A stretch of DNA of 64,000 bases from the NCBI GenBank assembly GCA_951406725.2, contig OX597816.1, forward strand, positions 105,524,001 through 105,588,000. Direction: 5' to 3'. Under the pieces are notes generated by a model. The model saw nothing but the letters and a program-made list of their open reading frames with translations, searched no databases and was not told the DNA's origin. This document shows positions 1 to 61,369 of the stretch, in pieces. The DNA comes from Octopus vulgaris (taxonomy: Eukaryota). Numbering within the stretch: the first letter of the stretch is position 1; the number at the start of each line of letters is the position of its first letter. A program made the translations under genes and the position numbers.

Positions 1-475
1 GATGCTTGAAAAGCTGTTATTGTTAAACCAACTACAGTGCTAGGTTTAATTATGAAGTTTATTTAACATTTTCCATTATACCATTTTCAATACTGCAAAC
101 ATTTGGCAGGGTACACTGCCTTGACCAAAAGTCCCAGTGACATTGGGGGAGGGGGCTATAGAATTGTGTATTTTAGAAGGGTGGACTACTCATTCAAAGC
201 TCAGACTTTTCTGAAGAAGAGAGATATTCTCTACAATGTACTAATGAAAGACTTTTCAATTTTAGACTTGTCAATTTTACAATGTTACTGCTGTTTACAG
301 TGGTAAACTGTATTTCCAAGTGGAACTTAATGAGTACTAAGTGAACTAAACCATTAAAAGTTAAGAACCTTGATCACAGACACTGCATCTTGATGATGAT
401 AAAAGACAAACAGTCAATCTTTTAGTTGGTTGTCAGTACTAGAGCTATCTCAATATTTAGAGTATATCAATATTA

Positions 476-855
476 CTAGAAATATTTTTAATTTTGAAAC
501 CCAGCGGATGTATTCCACTGAATTTAGATAAATAATCCTTCAAACAGATGGTCAGTAGCGACTCCTGCTGGGTTCGGCTACTCTGCATTGATAAAGGGCA
601 AATACCCTGAAACATGTCTGCAGATGCCTGACCAGCAAGGGGAAGCGGCTGACCTTCCCTGTTCGAAGGTTATAATGGACACAGGTTTGTGTGTCATATA
701 GCTAGCTAGAGGTGATGGCCTCTTGGAGCTAATCAACGGCAGCTTTCATCCTATATTTATGGACTGCCATATTAGCTTGGCGATAACTATTAATATCCAG
801 TATCGCTGCCGTAGTCTCCTTTAGAGAGACTTAGAAATAATAATATTTCTAATAT
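476..855 (+). mobile_element. Hammerhead-bearing structured non-coding element, copy 1 (retrozyme-like or Penelope-associated)
   Basis: GC-richer island made almost entirely of hairpins, homologous to 36502-36802(-) and 31691-31782(-), flanked by a 39-bp direct repeat (437-475/856-894). Confidence 0.7.
582..624 (+). ncRNA. Type I hammerhead ribozyme (U3-A8 core variant), predicted cleavage after GUC at 618
   Basis: TCTGCA-TTGATAA-AGGG(caaata)CCCT-GAAAC-AT-GTC-TGCAGA: 6-bp stem I, 4-bp stem II, palindromic minimal stem III ACATGT. Confidence 0.75.
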
Positions 856-1169
856 TACTAGAGCTATCTCAATATTTAGAGCATATAAATATTAGAACAT
901 TCCTTTCAGTGCCCCAATAAAAATACATTCTTAAAATAGTTGTTCTTTTTATTTTACTTTAAAACAACAGCATCAAAAATAAAATCAGTAATGATAATTC
1001 TCTTCTACATAGGAGTACAATGTTAAAGATGAAAATAGTGACAGTGGAGTTTATGCCTCTACCAAAGGTATTTGGATTGGGCACAAAGTAAAGCTTACCC
1101 CTCCATTTTGGTACAACAATAACAGTGATAATAATAAATTACAAAAACAAAAGATATCAGTTCTCTCAC

Positions 1170-1361
1170 CTGACGTCCTCTAAACTCAATTTGAAAATTT
1201 TTGGCTGATTCCTGTGTCACACGCCCTCCGAAGTCTAACTGATACACTTGACTACCTTCATTCCATAACGGTGCTTTATTGTACATAACAAACTGACGTC
1301 CTGCACAAACAGTACTGGAACCCATGCGTCGAGGTTCACCCCGACGTCGTGCTTTTCGAAT
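1170..1361 (-). CDS. TULP4: Tubby-related protein 4 (TULP4/Tusp) homolog, coding exon with the C-terminal tubby-like domain (192 nt, phase 0-0)
   Basis: Translates IRKARRRGEPRRMGSSTVCAGRQFVMYNKAPLWNEGSQVYQLDFGGRVTQESAKNFQIEFRGRQ, matching the TULP4 hallmark NKxPLWNExxQVYQLDFGGRVTQESAKNFQIE. Acceptor ttgtttcag|ATT (AG at 1363-1362) and donor CAG|gtgaga (GT at 1169-1168). The expected last exon (VMQFGRID...) is not seen in the window. Confidence 0.95.
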
Positions 1362-31690: not shown

Positions 31691-31782
31691 GTTTGCTAAC
31701 ATAACATGGCAGTCCTGCTTTAGGATGAATGTTGCTGTAATTTAGCCCCAGGAGACATCTTCTCCTGCTGGCTATATGACAG
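31691..31782 (-). mobile_element. 5'-truncated copy 3 of the hammerhead-element family (3' hairpin domain only)
   Basis: Minus strand gtcatatagccagcaggagaagatgtctcctggggctaaattacagcaacattcatcctaaagcaggactgccat aligns with the 3' parts of copies 1 and 2. Confidence 0.7.
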
Positions 31783-34559: not shown

Positions 34560-35843
34560 TCATGTCATCCCATAAGTTCTGTCCGATTTTACCTTTTTTA
34601 AAATTGAATAAAATTCAATAGTATATTAGAATGTCTAATGGAATTAAAAATTATTTTTATGCATTTGTGTATATTTAAACTAATTACAAACTATTTTACA
34701 GAATAATAGAATTAAAATTTTTTTGGTTAAAACCCTTTCTAACATGGAAGTATCCAAAGAGCATTTGAGGCACAGAATGCTTTTTGAGTACGAAAAAAGA
34801 AACTCAGCAGCGAAAGTGACTCGAAACACACTCAGTTTATGGGAAAGAATGCTTGAATGAAAGAACTTGTAGAAGATGGTTTGCAAAATCCAGAAGTGGA
34901 GATTTCAGCCTTGAAGATGAAGATCGAACAGGACGTCCAGTTGAGTTTGATGATAAGCCCCTTGAGGCATTACTTGAAGAAAATCCTGCATTATCAGTTG
35001 AAGAATTGGCAATGAAGCTTAGTTCAAACCATACAACTGTTCATCATCATCTTCAACAACTTGGAAAGGTTCCTAAAATTGGAAAATGGGTGCCTCATGA
35101 ATTGTCCAAAAGCAGCCGCAAATCTTGAGTTGACATCTGCTCTTCTCTCCATTCTTGTGAACTAATTTCACCCATTTTGGATAGACTTGTGACTGGGGAT
35201 GAAAAATGGATCTTCTATCGAAATGTTAACAATGTAAACATTGTAAACAATGGCTTGGTAAAAGGGAAAAAGTTCAACCACAACCAAGAAGGGAACTTCA
35301 TGAGAAAAAGGTTCTTCTCTCTGTCTGGTGGGATTGAAAAAGGAGTAATTCATTTTGAATTGTTACCATCTAATGCAACAATTAATGCTCAAGTCTACTG
35401 TCAGCAATTAGAGCATTTGAATCAAGCTTTGAAGAAAAAAAGACCCACTTTAGTGAATCAAATAGGAGTGATGTTTCATAAGGACAATGCACAACCCCAC
35501 ACTGCAAAGATCCCATCACAGAAGATCGAAGAGCTTGGTTGGGAAAAAATTCCTCATCCACCTTATTCTCCCAACTTTGCTCCTTCAGACTACCATTTGT
35601 TTCATAGTTTACAGAATCATTTAGGGGACATAATGTTCGCAAGCCAGGAGGAAGTCGAAACTGACATTTCAGAGTTGTTCGCTTTGAAACCAAAAGAGTT
35701 TAACATTGATGGGATTAAAAAGCTTGTAAATAGATGAAAGGAAGTCATAGATAATCAGGGAAAGTACATTGATGATTAAATATAACATTTGATCACCTGT
35801 TTTCTTTATTCAAAATTCGAACAGAACTTATGGGGTGACTTGA
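34560..35843 (+). mobile_element. Full-length mariner (DD34D) DNA transposon with pseudogenised transposase (about 34744-35779)
   Basis: About 30-bp TIRs (tcatgtcatcccataagttctgtccgatttt / aaaattcgaacagaacttatggggtgacttga), TA duplications at 34558 and 35844, 1284 bp. Motifs WVPHEL, TGDEKW, HKDNAQPH, YSPNFAPSDYHLF with 34 residues between the last two Asp. Frameshifts and stops present. Confidence 0.95.
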
Positions 35844-36167: not shown

Positions 36168-36501
36168 AGAACAGTCATCAACAAATAAAGCCTTCTGGAC
36201 AGATTTTTTTCCATTCAGCTTGGTCTTGGCACTCAGCTTGCTTGGGTTGAATAGTGACCATCCTAGTTCATATCTCAGGAATATTCTTCAGTGAAGCTAA
36301 AGCAAGGCATGGAGTAAGACACACACAAAGAACAAGATAAACAACACAATTATAAGGATATGACTTAGTTTCATAGCATTTGAAATTTGAAATGAGGCAT
36401 GGTGTATTTACTAGAAAGGACATATCTATTGCAGAAGAGAAAGACAAATAATAATAAATCTCTGAATGAGGTATAGACAGTAACTGCACAACAATGTGAA
36501 G

Positions 36502-36802
36502 TATATTTACCATTTCAATATGGCTAACCACTAAGGGTGGATGTTACTGTAGCTTGTAGCCCCAGGAGAACATCTTCTCCAGCTGGCTATTGACACACTT
36601 TCTGTGCCCTATCAGTATTTGCAAAGGGAGGTCATCCTTCCCTTGTCAACCTAAGTGATACGCATGGACTGCAGTTTCTGGGTATTGACCCGTCATCAGC
36701 GCACGACAATCACCGGTTTTCAATGGAAGGGTCCCAATGCAAATATTTATATCCTTTTTCCAGTTACTTTTCATCACTGATCTTGAAAAAGTGTATACAA
36801 GC
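36502..36802 (-). mobile_element. Hammerhead-bearing structured non-coding element, copy 2
   Basis: Same motif order as copy 1, flanked by a 52-bp direct repeat (36450-36501/36803-36854). Confidence 0.75.
36655..36713 (-). ncRNA. Type I hammerhead ribozyme (canonical core, some decay in stems), predicted cleavage after GUC at 36667
   Basis: Minus strand GTGATTGT-CGTGCG-CTGATGA-CGGGT(caat)ACCCA-GAAAC-TGCA-GTC-CATGCG-TATCAC, with palindromic stem III ACTGCAGT. Confidence 0.8.
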
Positions 36803-38701
36803 AATAATAAATCTCTGAACGAGGTATAGACAGTAACTGCATGACAATGTGAAGAAAGACAATTTTGATGAATCTCCTCACACAGCTGAACTGTGAAAGG
36901 TTGACCTGAAGTGTTCCTTCATAATTTTTCTCAAGCAGATATCATTGGGCAGATGTTGCCTGAAACATATTCATTTAACATATTTAAAAAGATAATATAT
37001 TAACAAAGGTATGATCCAATAGTTTGCTGCATTAAATCTGTAATCGTTCTGGAGTGGTCATTATTAGAAATCTTTCCTCCCACTGAAAAAGTGATATGTA
37101 TGTAATCTCTCTCTCACACACACAGAGAGCAGGAATTTTTTTTTCTTGTCACATAGAGTAGAGTTGTTATCATCATTGTTTAACATCCATTTTCCATGCT
37201 GGCATGGGTTGGATGGTTTGACTGAGGAGTGACAAGCCAGAAGGCCGCACCAGGCTCCAATATGATCTGGCAATGTTTCTACAGCTGGATGCCCTTCCTA
37301 ACACCAACTACTCCAAGAGTGTAGTAGGTGCTTTTTATGTGCCACTGGCACAGGAACTAGTCAGGCAGGCCTGGCATTGATCACATTCGGACAGTGCTTT
37401 TTACGTGCCACTAGCATAGGAGCCAGTCAGTGGGTACAGGCATCAGCTACGTTCGGATAATCAAAACTAAATGTTGGGTCTGCTGATATGGTGGACTGAG
37501 CTAAGCCTGATAAAACCCTGACTATATGATACCTCATGCAGCTATGAGATGTGAAGCAGTATAGAATGTAATGTCCAACTGAACAAATTAAAATGGTAGC
37601 AGCAAATTTCAACTGAAAACCCATGAGAAGTCCAAAATGTTATCTATTCGACCAAGTTATTTGTAACACACACACACACACACACACACATTAAATTAAT
37701 ATTAACACTATACTGTTGTTGTTGGTGATGATGATGATGACAATGATGATGAATAGCATTGTTGATGATATCAATAATTTGCACTGAAATTTAAGAGGAA
37801 TGAGAAAAATTAATAAATTGTTATTTATAGATAATATCAAGTTAGTTCTCTTCTCACACTTTGTTATGTTTGAGAAAGAAACAGAAGTTGAAGTTTTAAG
37901 AAGAATCAGCAAAATTAAATCATAGAATCTGATGTGGTTTAAAATAAAATTAAATTGATAAAAGTAGAGATAATAGCTCCTATTAAAAGCTGCATCGAAT
38001 TTTGATAAAGTTTGTTAATCACTATTAAGTAGTGTATGTATATTTCTTACTGTTAAGTCCCTTCTTTTAAATTCTATTTTAATTTTTGTCACATAATAGC
38101 ATTTTGATTTCATTCTAACATTCTTCCCCAGAACAAATTGGATTAATTCAATAAAGCACTTATTGGAAAGTAGAACCTGAATTGAAGCTTAGAGAGTGGA
38201 AGAGTGTGTGTATGTGTGTGTGTGTGTGTGTGCGTGTGTGCATGTGTGTGTGTGTGTGTGTGTGTGTGAGAATGAGTGGGGCTGAAAAATTTGAAACTCT
38301 TTAAGAAAAACAATTATTTAATTAGCTGAATGTTTGATCTGAGTAGAGGTAACTGCTTTGTAGATTAAAATAAAGTCAGATTTAGAAAGATATTGTAAAG
38401 TGAAGTAAGTTCCAATTAAAGAAACATCAAGAGGAATGCTGTCAGGTTATATTTTGTACTGAATGCCAGAAAAGTATAACTACCCCCAAGTTAAGAATAC
38501 GACCATACACTGATCAAGACATACCAAGATGATGGCTGTAGCAAGATGAAAAACATTAGAAACATAAGAATTATAAGAATATTCTTTCTTAATATAAATA
38601 TTCTGAATGTCTAATGGATTCTTCACTGTGTTAATATTTTCTTCTGGAAATAAAACATGTAGTCGTTGATGTTTAGACCCAGGTCAACTAGCTGTCCCCA
38701 T

Positions 38702-39900
38702 CCTGGTAAAACAATGTAGGGGATGCGCTATGGCAGCAAAGGCACCCTCAGTGCAGATACAGCCATGACCAAAAATGGATTCAGCATGGTCTAGACTGCA
38801 TGTGGATTTCACAGGACCAATAACTGGATCTTATTATATCATTGTGGTGGATAGAAATTCCAAATGGCCTGAAGTATGTAAATATTCAAGGCCAACCACA
38901 ACTGTAACTATTGACTTCTTGGAAGAATTGTTCACTCATTATAGAGTGTCTGATATGATTGTGTCGGATAATGGCACACAATTCATGGTGAAGGAGTTTG
39001 AAAGATTCTGTAAGTTGGTCCAGATGAAGAATGTGTTAACTCCACCATACAATCCAAGGTTAAATGGGTTAGGGGAAAGATTCGTCAACACATTCAAGAG
39101 AGTTTTAAGAAAGACTAGATGGGAAGTCCTTGAAGATAGAAATATGACAAAGTTCTTACAGGTGCACAGAATAACACCAAATCCAAATGCAAAGTTGAGT
39201 AGGTCACCCACAGATTTGATGTTCTCCAGAAAAGATTTGTTGTGTTTGACAAATTGTTGCTGAGTAGGAAATGGAAAATACAAAATTCGGGAAGTAGAAT
39301 GAAATTTTTAAACACAGGTGATGAAGTGTATTTTAAAATATATAAAAATGGAAAACAGGACTGGGAACTGGATGTCTGGGCAATGTGATGTACATGGTAA
39401 AAGGACCAAAATATGAACATAAAAGGCATTCTAACCAATTAAAGAAAAGATATACCAAAAATCAAGAAAGGTGAGAGGAGCCAATGGATATATGGTATGA
39501 CATGTTTGAGGTCTCAGAACCACAAGTGATAGCAGAACTGACACATAGGTCAAACAGGAAAAGAAAAGCTACAGAAATGATGGAAATTAATGCCAAGAGA
39601 AAGAAATATGCCAGTTTCTCAACAAGGAAATAAAATTAATAAAAATAAGGAATAAATAAATAAAAAAAGACAAAGCCAATCTCAAAAGGGGAAGTGTTGT
39701 GTGGAAGTAGAACACCCCTATTGGTTGGCTCCTAACGGACTGTGCCACAATATAAATAGATATATGCAGAGAGCCTTCATCACAGAGTAAAGCCGGGAGT
39801 TATATACTGTCAAGGGTTATTACCAGTATCATAAGTAGAATGATTTGCGAGGACACTATTATTATCCCATTATATCATACGTCAAACATGCGATACAACA
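38702..39900 (+). mobile_element. Ty3/gypsy LTR retrotransposon 3' remnant: integrase, PPT and 3' LTR (39695-39900)
   Basis: CxxC, RLHVDFTGP, IVVDRNSKWPEV, IVSDNGTQF and PPYNPRLNGLGERF motifs. Polypurine tract aaaaggggaag directly before TGTTGT...ACAACA (206 bp). Confidence 0.9.
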
Positions 39901-59555: not shown

Positions 59556-59745
59556 TCTTTTGCACACATGCTCAATAGATGTATATTATTCAAAGATGTT
59601 TATATTATGATACAACAGAAGTCAACTTCAGCATGAAAAAAAATACTGCTACAGATTTTAAAAAAAGTCAAATAAATGCACATGAAATTTAAAACAAAAA
59701 ACTTAAACTACAATTAAATGTAATTAAATAAAAGCATAGGTTTAC

Positions 59746-60917
59746 CTTTTGCCGAAGTTGTGCTTTTTGGAATGATTCTAGATCTTTGAAACTGTGAATG
59801 ACTTTTGCATTTTCATCAGCACTGCAGGACAGATCTTCTTCAGAGCTGTCTAATAGCCTCAAGTAACGATGCTGTTTTTTGCCTAAAACTGGGCTATAAT
59901 GTTTGCTTTTACCACGTAACACTTCCTCTCTTAGTCTTCGTGTAGGTGTGTCCATCTTTGGACTTCGACGAACAGGTGATGAAGGCAGAGAAGCGCTCTG
60001 TTTGATTTCTTGGCTTGATAGTCCTCGATTTAGAGTTGATTCTTTTACTGAATCTGATAAAATATTGATTCCTGTATCAACTGAACCATGCTTTTTAAGA
60101 GTTCTTTTGATTGGGGAATGATGGGGGCTGCATGTACTTTCTGATGCACTATCATCTTCAGTAGTAGTTGAGTCTATGCTTGTTCGGTAATAATGAGCAA
60201 ACGGGGATGGTTTTTCTAAAGTGTCACTGTCTGGGAGGGAGTCCTGATGAGCAAAATACAAACGAGGTTGGTTTTCTCTGGCAGTAACAGGGACTAATTG
60301 GCTACAGTCCTGAATAGTGTTTGCTTCTAATGGCAGCTCAGAGTTATCACCACCCTCATCATCAATGTACCTAAGACTCTGACGTGCTGGATCAGCCCAG
60401 CGTGGCATATCATCAGACATGTCAGTTCGTAAAATTTCTTCTAATTCAGTTTTTGGTTGTTTAGAACCTTCACTGAGTACAAGGCTCTGTTGCCCTGTAT
60501 CCAGTGTAATTTTAGGTGGGTTTGCATTAGTAGGAACTTTTGGTCTTGCTCCTAAACATTGATAACCATCTTTTGATATTACTCCATCACTGCTGTTAGA
60601 GTTCACTATACAGTTATTTGCTGTCTCAAAGTGTATATCACGTGGATTCATGCTCACCTGAGAGATTTTAGCAGGTTGGAGTTGGTTGGTTTTATTGGCA
60701 GGAAAACCTGTGAAATTTGGTCCTTCAGAAGATTTTGCTGCTAAGCTTTCCCGGTCAATAATAATTGGAGATTCAATATGATTACCTATAGAATTTGTTC
60801 CAAATGGTTCCATTGGATAGTGTGCAGCTATCCTTGAGTTAGGATCAATAGAAGATTCTGGAATGATGCTAACATCTGGTACTGTGGCTCCACCAACAAC
60901 ACTGACAATTTCAAGCC
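59746..60917 (-). CDS. TULP4: TULP4 homolog, large internal exon (1172 nt, phase 1 to phase 0) encoding the Ser/Pro/acidic linker
   Basis: Only long non-TE ORF. It stays open upstream of the ORF-track Met to acceptor tttttattgttttag|GG (AG 60919-60918) and ends ...FKDLESFQKAQLRQK at AAG|gtaaac (GT 59745-59744). Phase 0 matches the 1361 acceptor and the strand is the same. Confidence 0.85.
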
Positions 60918-61369
60918 CTAAAACAATAAAAAAACAAATGTTAAAATTACTTAAAAAATAACTCTTAACTTAAGAAAGCAGAAAATTATTTTTGATTCAA
61001 TTATATTGTATTCTGAGAATTTTTATACATTTAGTTTTTAGCACACTATAGGCATAGTAACATTACAAAGACACATTACAGATATATTGGACTGCTAAGA
61101 CATGTTGTAAATGGATCTTCATATGTAAATTGAGTATTTCACAGACACGTGTCTTTAATTCTAAGGAAGAATTAATTTAACAGATTATGAAAAAGCTACT
61201 ACTTTGAAGTACAGATACACTTCATCCAATGAGCTTTCAAATAGTTCCTTTTTACCCAATATTACTTGGTCTATCTAAGGCTATCGTAAAAGACACTAGT
61301 TCAAGATGTCACACAGTGAAATCAAATCCAGGATAACATAATTATGAAGCAAATTTCTTAACCATTTCT

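What the first reader, a model, noticed from the sequence alone, without database searches (positions are those of the whole stretch)
588..594. U3-A8 compensatory variant in the hammerhead catalytic core
Copy 1 reads TTGATAA where copy 2 reads CTGATGA. The two changes fall exactly on positions 3 and 8, which form the C3-G8 Watson-Crick pair of the active hammerhead fold. U3-A8 is a known tolerated covariant. Neither site is a CpG, so this looks more like a functional subfamily variant than decay, and consensus-based searches would miss it.
Basis: partly seen in the sequence, partly recalled or inferred. Interest (0 to 1): 0.72.

Follow-up and report, generated by a model that had tools for sequence, protein, structure and literature searches.

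The report
Variant hammerhead in a retrozyme family
This is one of hundreds of copies of a short mobile repeat in an animal genome, whose predicted self-cutting RNA has a known swapped base pair in its core (U-A instead of C-G); related repeat families have spread with all four versions of that pair, including two that would be expected to cut poorly.

Summary
Confirmed: 588-594 reads TTGATAA in a complete type I hammerhead, within a 361-nt dispersed, non-coding, retrozyme-type element. U3-A8 is the family's normal state, not decay: 98 of the first 100 listed matches carry it, and genome-wide counts are U-A 640, C-G 494, C·A 42, U·G 18.

Four corrections:
(1) Copy 2 is a different family (64% identical over 197 nt), so that table reflects one inherited switch.
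(2) Natural U3-A8 is published (Perreault 2011; Schistosoma Penelope-like elements, Cervera and de la Peña 2014).
(3) Rfam misses the C3-G8 copy too.
(4) Positions 3 and 8 are not strictly coupled. Among 23 related subfamilies, 11 are U-A, 7 C-G, 4 U·G (319 exact copies) and one very young family is C·A.

The tree suggests U3-A8 arose at least twice, in the sister clade probably via U·G. Stems and the loop-3 palindrome keep covarying, so the fold is likely under selection, but cleavage is untested. The scan noted U3-A8 retrozymes and the four-state series before, on other DNA. Verdict: a known variant in a new family, with a testable natural allelic series beside it.

The parts
481..851 (+). 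Family A1 element: one 361-nt monomer plus about 10 nt terminal redundancy, one hammerhead, no ORF; 96.5% identical to the family consensus
   Evidence: 361-nt period from tandem copies L025 and L075 and a head-to-tail joint 849->489; fold z=-6.55
588..594 (+). Catalytic core U3-U4-G5-A6-U7-A8-A9 (U3=588, A8=593)
576..587 (+). 5' strand of stem I: outer helix 576-578, bulge UAC 579-581, 6-bp proximal helix 582-587
   Evidence: pair probabilities 0.85-1.0; covariation
595..608 (+). Stem II (4 bp, A10.1-U11.1) with loop CAAAUA
609..618 (+). GAAA, palindromic loop 3 (612-617), U16.1-C17; predicted cut after 618
619..628 (+). 3' strand of stem I (619-624), bulged U625, outer helix 626-628
437..475 (+). 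Left copy of a 39-bp flanking direct repeat (94.9% identical to the right copy); likely target duplication or Penelope-type tail
856..894 (+). Right copy of the 39-bp flanking direct repeat
36444..36854 (-). Copy 2: family B1 element (353-nt unit plus 58-nt terminal repeat); C3-G8 core at 36699-36693, C10.1·A11.1 mismatch, loop-3 palindrome ACUGCAGU
1170..1361 (-). Penultimate exon of a Tub-domain host gene (TULP4-like; name recalled). The last exon lies about 3.3 kb before the window, so copy 1 sits antisense in the last intron
   Evidence: Pfam PF01167 E=2.4e-11; splice sites and last exon in L216

Best explanation
The motif is the core of a type I hammerhead carried by a 361-nt non-coding dispersed repeat, and U3-A8 is that family's normal state, which likely keeps the 3-8 pair and so is predicted to allow self-cleavage. 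Shown: complete fold, family-wide fixation, covarying stems, tandem and inverted copies. Inferred: transcripts with two units cut after C17 as a double hammerhead, pairing through the palindromic loop 3, and give unit-length and probably circular RNA that a Penelope-like RT/endonuclease copies into new sites. Across the superfamily the pair seems to be under softer selection than the stems. U3-A8 arose at least twice; in the sister clade the most economical path is C-G to U·G to U-A, with one later C·A offshoot. This particular copy is a solo unit, antisense in an intron, and most likely an inert passenger.
For: Fixation: 207 exact matches, 98 of 100 listed U3-A8; 640 U-A matches, with 8 U·G and 13 C·A singles in A-type context. 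Structure: across 23 subfamilies (43-97% identical) every stem I position is paired in 22-23 of 23, with up to four pair types, and the loop-3 palindrome in 22 of 23. Within the U-A clade, pairs I.4, I.6, the outer helix and the palindrome (ACAUGU, ACUAGU, ACGCGU) still change on both sides, which points to selection after the switch. Positions 3-8 can pair (WC or G·U) in 22 of 23. Dimer model: helix III probability 0 in the monomer; double hammerhead -37.8 against 2 x -16.3 kcal/mol. Element anatomy: permuted monomers, partial tandems, inverted copies, (TA)n ends, as described for PLE insertions. Intact PLE-type ORFs of 778-908 aa are in the genome. Two origins: one clade of all U3 or A8 rows is rejected (p-AU 0.0009; 0.026 without the hammerhead columns). 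Literature: U3-A8 active in vitro and found in nature (PMC3088659 section 8).
Against: No cleavage data here. [quoted passage not shown] Amplified U·G (319 copies) and C·A families show that a Watson-Crick 3-8 pair is not needed for spread. The independent-pairs test of 3/8 coupling has only 3 pairs and is not significant. An alternative core-sequestering helix has probability 0.25-0.42. No autonomous partner sharing the sequence was found. The clade test was framed after the tree was seen, recombination between subfamilies could mimic a second origin (K has a G-like body and a J0-like hammerhead 5' half), and three subfamilies rest on single copies.
Confidence: 0.72

Rival explanations
1. Catalysis is relaxed or dispensable. 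The hammerhead fold is kept as a structural or protein-binding element, or cuts only slowly, and the 3-8 state drifts with whichever master copy is active, so U3-A8 is tolerated rather than compensatory.
For: Family F is fixed for C3·A8 (14 of 14 fetched copies at 10 places, median 0.4% from consensus, a tandem trimer). U3·G8 is 319 of 622 in its clade. Position 10.1-11.1 is unpaired in 8 of 23 subfamilies. Low in vitro activity is reported for metazoan PLE hammerheads and for 3/8 mutants.
Against: G16.2-U16.1-C17, which most search patterns did not force, is GUC in all 23 consensuses. Only Y3 and R8 states were seen as family consensus (but only these were searched for), and 22 of 23 can pair. 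Stems and palindrome covary.
Confidence: 0.2
2. Trans-complementation: weak-core families are cut by strong-core relatives in mixed double hammerheads, so selection on the core acts at population level.
For: F (C·A) has loop 3 and stem I fully compatible with D3 (U-A) as enzyme strand, and Lf (U·G) with B2 (C-G).
Against: J, J2 and J0 (U·G, most of the 319 copies) are compatible only with each other among the 23 subfamilies. Co-expression is untested. It does not change the reading of family A.
Confidence: 0.06
3. Post-insertional decay: this copy is a chance double mutant of a C3-G8 family.
For: None beyond the two-copy comparison.
Against: 640 genome-wide U-A matches, and none of the first 100 C-G rows belongs to family A (the four look-alikes are a different family, C).
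Confidence: 0.01

Closest known systems
Metazoan non-LTR retrozymes (Cervera and de la Peña 2020, PMC7229834, passages read; Li et al. preprint 10.64898/2026.07.22.740005, part 1 of 5 and passages read)
   Same: Non-coding unit of 350-390 nt as in mussel and axolotl, type I hammerhead with weak helix III, highly self-paired unit, monomers, dimers and multimers in the genome.
   Different: Family core is U3-A8; mostly dispersed monomers with inverted copies; circular RNA and cleavage not shown here. No core variant appeared in the passages I read.
U3-A8 minimal hammerheads of Schistosoma mansoni Cercyon Penelope-like elements (Cervera and de la Peña 2014, PMC4209133, parts 1-2 of 4 read)
   Same: Same U3-A8 covariation, type I, animal retroelement, about 1,300 mostly solo hits, dimer model.
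   Different: Those are minimal motifs (no helix III, 7-8 bp helix II) in pLTRs of coding elements. Here the geometry is canonical (6-bp helix I, 4-bp helix II, palindromic loop 3) in a non-coding unit.
Natural U3-A8 hammerheads (Perreault et al. 2011, PMC3088659, section 8 and passages read)
   Same: Same covariation, described as active in vitro by earlier work.
   Different: Scattered examples, not an amplified family with U·G and C·A sister families. Supplementary figures S6/S7 and Dataset S1 not seen.

Membership tests
Type I hammerhead ribozyme | Core C3UGANG8A ... GAAA ... UH | tested here: met
   All conserved bases present except C3U and G8A, a published covariant; cut triplet GUC
Type I hammerhead ribozyme | Helices I and II form; helix I open-ended | tested here: met
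   Pair probabilities 0.85-1.0; covariation over 23 subfamilies
Type I hammerhead ribozyme | Helix III stable, or weak with palindromic loop for dimer folding | tested here: met
   Palindrome ACAUGU; palindromic in 22 of 23 subfamilies; dimer favoured by 5.2 kcal/mol over two open monomers
Type I hammerhead ribozyme | G10.1-C11.1 pair | tested here: not met
   A-U in this copy; G-C in 5 of 23 subfamilies. This is a preference, and even U-U is tolerated
Type I hammerhead ribozyme | Loop 1-loop 2 tertiary contact | tested here: inconclusive
   A U-N-Y bulge opposite U, and a loop 2 mostly YAAWUA, are conserved across subfamilies; likeness to the Schistosoma contact is recalled, not tested
Type I hammerhead ribozyme | Match to an Rfam hammerhead model | tested here: not met
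   No hammerhead hit for either copy, even at E up to 10
Type I hammerhead ribozyme | Self-cleavage after N17 | not testable with these tools
   Needs an in vitro assay
Non-LTR retrozyme | Non-coding 170-400 nt unit with one type I hammerhead | tested here: met
   361-nt unit, no ORF of 130 aa or more in it
Non-LTR retrozyme | Tandem copies, each with a hammerhead | tested here: met
   A-clade dimers L025 and L075; dimers and trimers in D, F, J, Lf. The window copy itself is a monomer
Non-LTR retrozyme | Highly self-paired unit | tested here: met
   z=-6.55, 0 of 100 shuffles fold as well
Non-LTR retrozyme | Expressed as circular RNA | not testable with these tools
   Needs RNase R treatment with northern blot or RT-PCR
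Penelope-like element pLTR (autonomous) | Hammerhead repeat flanks an RT/GIY-YIG ORF | tested here: not met
   No family A or B unit directly flanks an intact ORF in the 40 loci L096-L135; nearby fragments in L085 and L092 are separated from the unit by (TA)n

The most novel reading that the evidence does not exclude
This superfamily is a living record of compensatory evolution in a ribozyme's catalytic base pair: C3-G8, U3·G8, U3-A8 and C3·A8 are each fixed in young, spreading families. The U·G wobble is a functional, selectable intermediate, and the C·A family is a ribozyme-weak parasite cut in trans by a U-A sibling through its shared palindromic loop.
Probability: 0.3. Interest if true: 0.68.

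Novelty: new member of a known kind. Interest (0 to 1): 0.4.

Why it matters
U3-A8 alone is a known variant, so the flagged copy is a modest addition: CUGANGA descriptors undercount animal retrozymes (here at least 640 copies). The larger value is the natural allelic series in close relatives (G/K 94%, F/D2 90%, Lf/D1 92% identical), each with a different 3-8 state. It makes two open questions directly testable: how much hammerhead activity a retrozyme needs in order to spread, and whether a catalytic tertiary pair evolves through a G·U intermediate as helix pairs do.

Tried and rejected
Rfam at gathering and E-value thresholds: no hammerhead hit for either copy.

Autonomous partner: PLE fragments beside L085 and L092 are separated from the units by (TA)n, so I read them as a shared target, not linkage. 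Intact 778-908 aa ORFs, found with the L085 fragment and recognised as Naiad-like from recalled motifs, showed no homologous hammerhead with my canonical descriptor. That descriptor would not see the rearranged hammerheads that earlier scan notes report for Naiads. Widely spaced hammerhead pairs (L096-L101) enclosed no PLE ORF.

C3·A8 singles in subfamily A2 do not form a supported clade; three of 11 sit at junctions and two are one duplication. The first clade test was invalid because my fetch over-sampled those copies; it was redone with A2 scored U-A.

A MAFFT alignment of the hammerheads misaligned the 3' half, so pair counts were made on motif-anchored positions; that shuffle control ignores relatedness. 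Independent-pairs test: 3 pairs, not significant.

Sequencing runs: no RNA holder listed. Contigs from four runs labelled as four other organisms cover the unit; no difference at 588 or 593 appears among the rows shown, but 72 rows were not shown. Whether family F occurs in other runs stays open.

Literature: 'hammerhead ribozyme'+'U3-A8' gave 1 paper; C3U/G8A-type terms 1; U3 G8/wobble/retrozyme/compensatory/intermediate (5 of 6 terms) 0; cephalopod+hammerhead ribozyme+Penelope 1 work. Przybilski and Hammann 2007, Nelson and Uhlenbeck 2008 and Martick and Scott 2006 are not held.

Full report
Observation. Window 588-594 reads TTGATAA. Around it lies a full type I hammerhead: a 6-bp helix I (582-587/619-624) extended past a UAC/U internal loop, a 4-bp helix II with loop CAAAUA, GAAA, a palindromic loop 3 (612-617) and U16.1-C17, so the predicted cut is after 618. 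Helices I and II have pair probabilities of 0.85-1.0 locally, in the whole unit and in the circular unit; helix III has 0. A strict descriptor finds this one site in the window and none in 100 shuffles. Copy 2 is at 36699 on the minus strand with CTGATGA. The two heptamers differ only at positions 3 and 8. Rfam finds neither copy.

The element. The genome is a 2.8-Gb animal assembly; earlier scan notes call it octopus-like, which I did not test. The motif sits in a non-coding unit at 481-851: a 361-nt monomer plus 10 nt, flanked by a 39-bp direct repeat. Other copies are dispersed, circularly permuted, partly tandem or inverted, and often end in (TA)n, the layout described for Penelope-like insertions (10.1101/2021.04.23.441226, passages). 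The unit folds far better than shuffles (z=-6.55). Size and anatomy match metazoan non-LTR retrozymes (PMC7229834, passages). The window copy is a solo unit, antisense in the last intron of a Tub-domain gene, so it would not cut that pre-mRNA.

With family A flanks, 207 sites match exactly and 98 of the first 100 listed are U3-A8. A pattern covering both window families gives U-A 640, C-G 494, U·G 18, C·A 42. All 100 listed U-A rows have the family A helix II. Of the 100 listed C-G rows, 96 are family B and 4 belong to a third family, C. Singles in A context are 8 U·G and 13 C·A. The copy is therefore no singleton. But families A and B are only 64% identical over 197 nt, so the 2x2 table records one inherited switch. 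In family B the C·A singles are enriched where position 7 is C, which makes G8 part of a CpG (17 of 29, against 21 of 96; p=0.0004; 4 of the 17 are one local duplication). 'Not a CpG' holds for the two window copies, not for the superfamily.

The wider superfamily. Looser patterns and fetched loci gave 238 hammerhead-anchored segments. They were grouped into 23 subfamilies; 21 truncated, chimeric or unrelated segments were left out, and A5, J0 and D4 rest on one copy each, D3 on two. The states are U-A 11, C-G 7, U·G 4, C·A 1. U3·G8 accounts for 319 of 622 matches in the sister clade. Family F carries C3·A8 in 14 of the first 100 of 236 rows and in 14 of 14 fetched copies at 10 places; it includes a tandem trimer and is 0.4% (median) from its consensus. 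Across all 23, stem I positions are paired in 22-23, with up to four pair types, and the loop-3 palindrome in 22; only 10.1-11.1 is loose (15 of 23). The invariance of U4, G5, A6, A9 and GAAAC is built into my patterns and is not evidence; the invariant GUC cut triplet was mostly not forced. Only Y3/R8 states were searched for.

History of the pair. On a tree without columns 3, 7 and 8, clade A (all U-A) groups with C-G families H, I and C, while K, the J group and the D/F/Lf group lie with C-G families B and G. Holding all U3 or A8 rows together is rejected (p-AU 0.0009; 0.026 without the hammerhead columns), and each position needs at least 4 changes. The J group (U·G) branches between the C-G families and D (U-A), so the most economical path there is C-G, then U·G, then U-A, the last step at a CpG, with F and Lf as later offshoots. 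Caveats: the group was named after the tree was seen, several forks are weak, recombination could move a hammerhead between bodies, and a test of 3/8 coupling on independent pairs has only 3 pairs and is not significant. No intermediate family was found on the branch to clade A.

Mechanism. Shown: the fold, the fixation of U3-A8, and continued two-sided changes in helix I and the palindrome within clade A. Inferred: cleavage as a double hammerhead, since the palindrome-paired dimer scores -37.8 kcal/mol against -32.6 for two open monomers, and closing helix III within one molecule costs 5.7; release of unit-length, probably circular RNA; and copying by a Penelope-like protein. Intact PLE-type ORFs exist, but no partner sharing the sequence was found. 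On activity the literature is split. Perreault et al. state that U3-A8 is active in vitro and occurs in nature (PMC3088659, section 8). A full pairwise scan of a type III hammerhead rescued only the G-C swap (PMC9901934, passages). The C3-G8 pair itself is established (PMC3884650, passages). I could not read Przybilski and Hammann 2007; its title, seen in reference lists, says tolerance depends on surrounding elements. The U·G and C·A families keep alive the rival that catalysis is relaxed. F is fully compatible as a substrate of D3 (U-A), whereas the J group is compatible only with itself.

Novelty. U3-A8 in an animal retroelement hammerhead is published (about 1,300 hits in Schistosoma Cercyon elements; PMC4209133, parts 1-2 of 4). 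I found no paper on amplified U·G or C·A hammerhead families or on these families. Supplements of PMC3088659, PMC4209133 and PMC7229834 were not read and could list them; a U3/G8 core with a two-base insertion from halophiles is mentioned in PMC7151607 (passage). Earlier notes of this scan report U3-A8 retrozymes in this and other genomes and the four-state series; I had found the series before that look-up. Verdict: real, and a new member of a known kind. The U·G and C·A sister families are the part worth bench time.

Noticed in passing
G000:C4:80857199-80857944 (L156) and L157-L165: Young 360-nt family F fixed for a C3·A8 mismatch, with a tandem trimer; loop 3 and stem I are compatible with U-A family D3 as a trans partner.
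   Followed up: partly
L196-L207, L213-L215; 319 sites genome-wide: Families J, J2, J0 and Lf fixed for U3·G8, many in tandem dimers and trimers, 0-2% from consensus.
   Followed up: partly
window 36678-36692 (-): Family B, and also G and I, has a C10.1·A11.1 mismatch as consensus; D1, D4 and Lf have U·U. This pair is unpaired in 8 of 23 subfamilies.
   Followed up: partly
window 31702-31781 (-): Decayed fragment of the same superfamily (73% over 83 nt), without a hammerhead.
   Followed up: no
L121, L122, L124, L125, L127, L128, L129, L130: Intact PLE-type ORFs of 778-908 aa (Naiad-like by recalled motifs); the 899-aa family has many near-identical copies, so it is probably recently active. 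Family A or B units lie close to such ORFs in 4 of the 30 loci L106-L135, probably through a shared (TA)n target.
   Followed up: partly
L096, L099, L100, L120, L128, L132, L192-L195: Other, apparently unrelated C3-G8 hammerhead-like motifs with longer helix II or III.
   Followed up: no
window 43584 (+): Weak hammerhead-like match (CTGAAGA, 3-bp stem II, 4-bp stem I); may be chance or decayed.
   Followed up: no
window 59692-60969 (-): 426-aa open frame with no Pfam family above cut-off (TACC_C E=0.098); possibly a large exon.
   Followed up: no
window 35129-35734 (+) and 38769-39260 (+): Open-frame fragments resembling a mariner transposase and an LTR-retrotransposon integrase (recognised from recalled motifs).
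   Followed up: no
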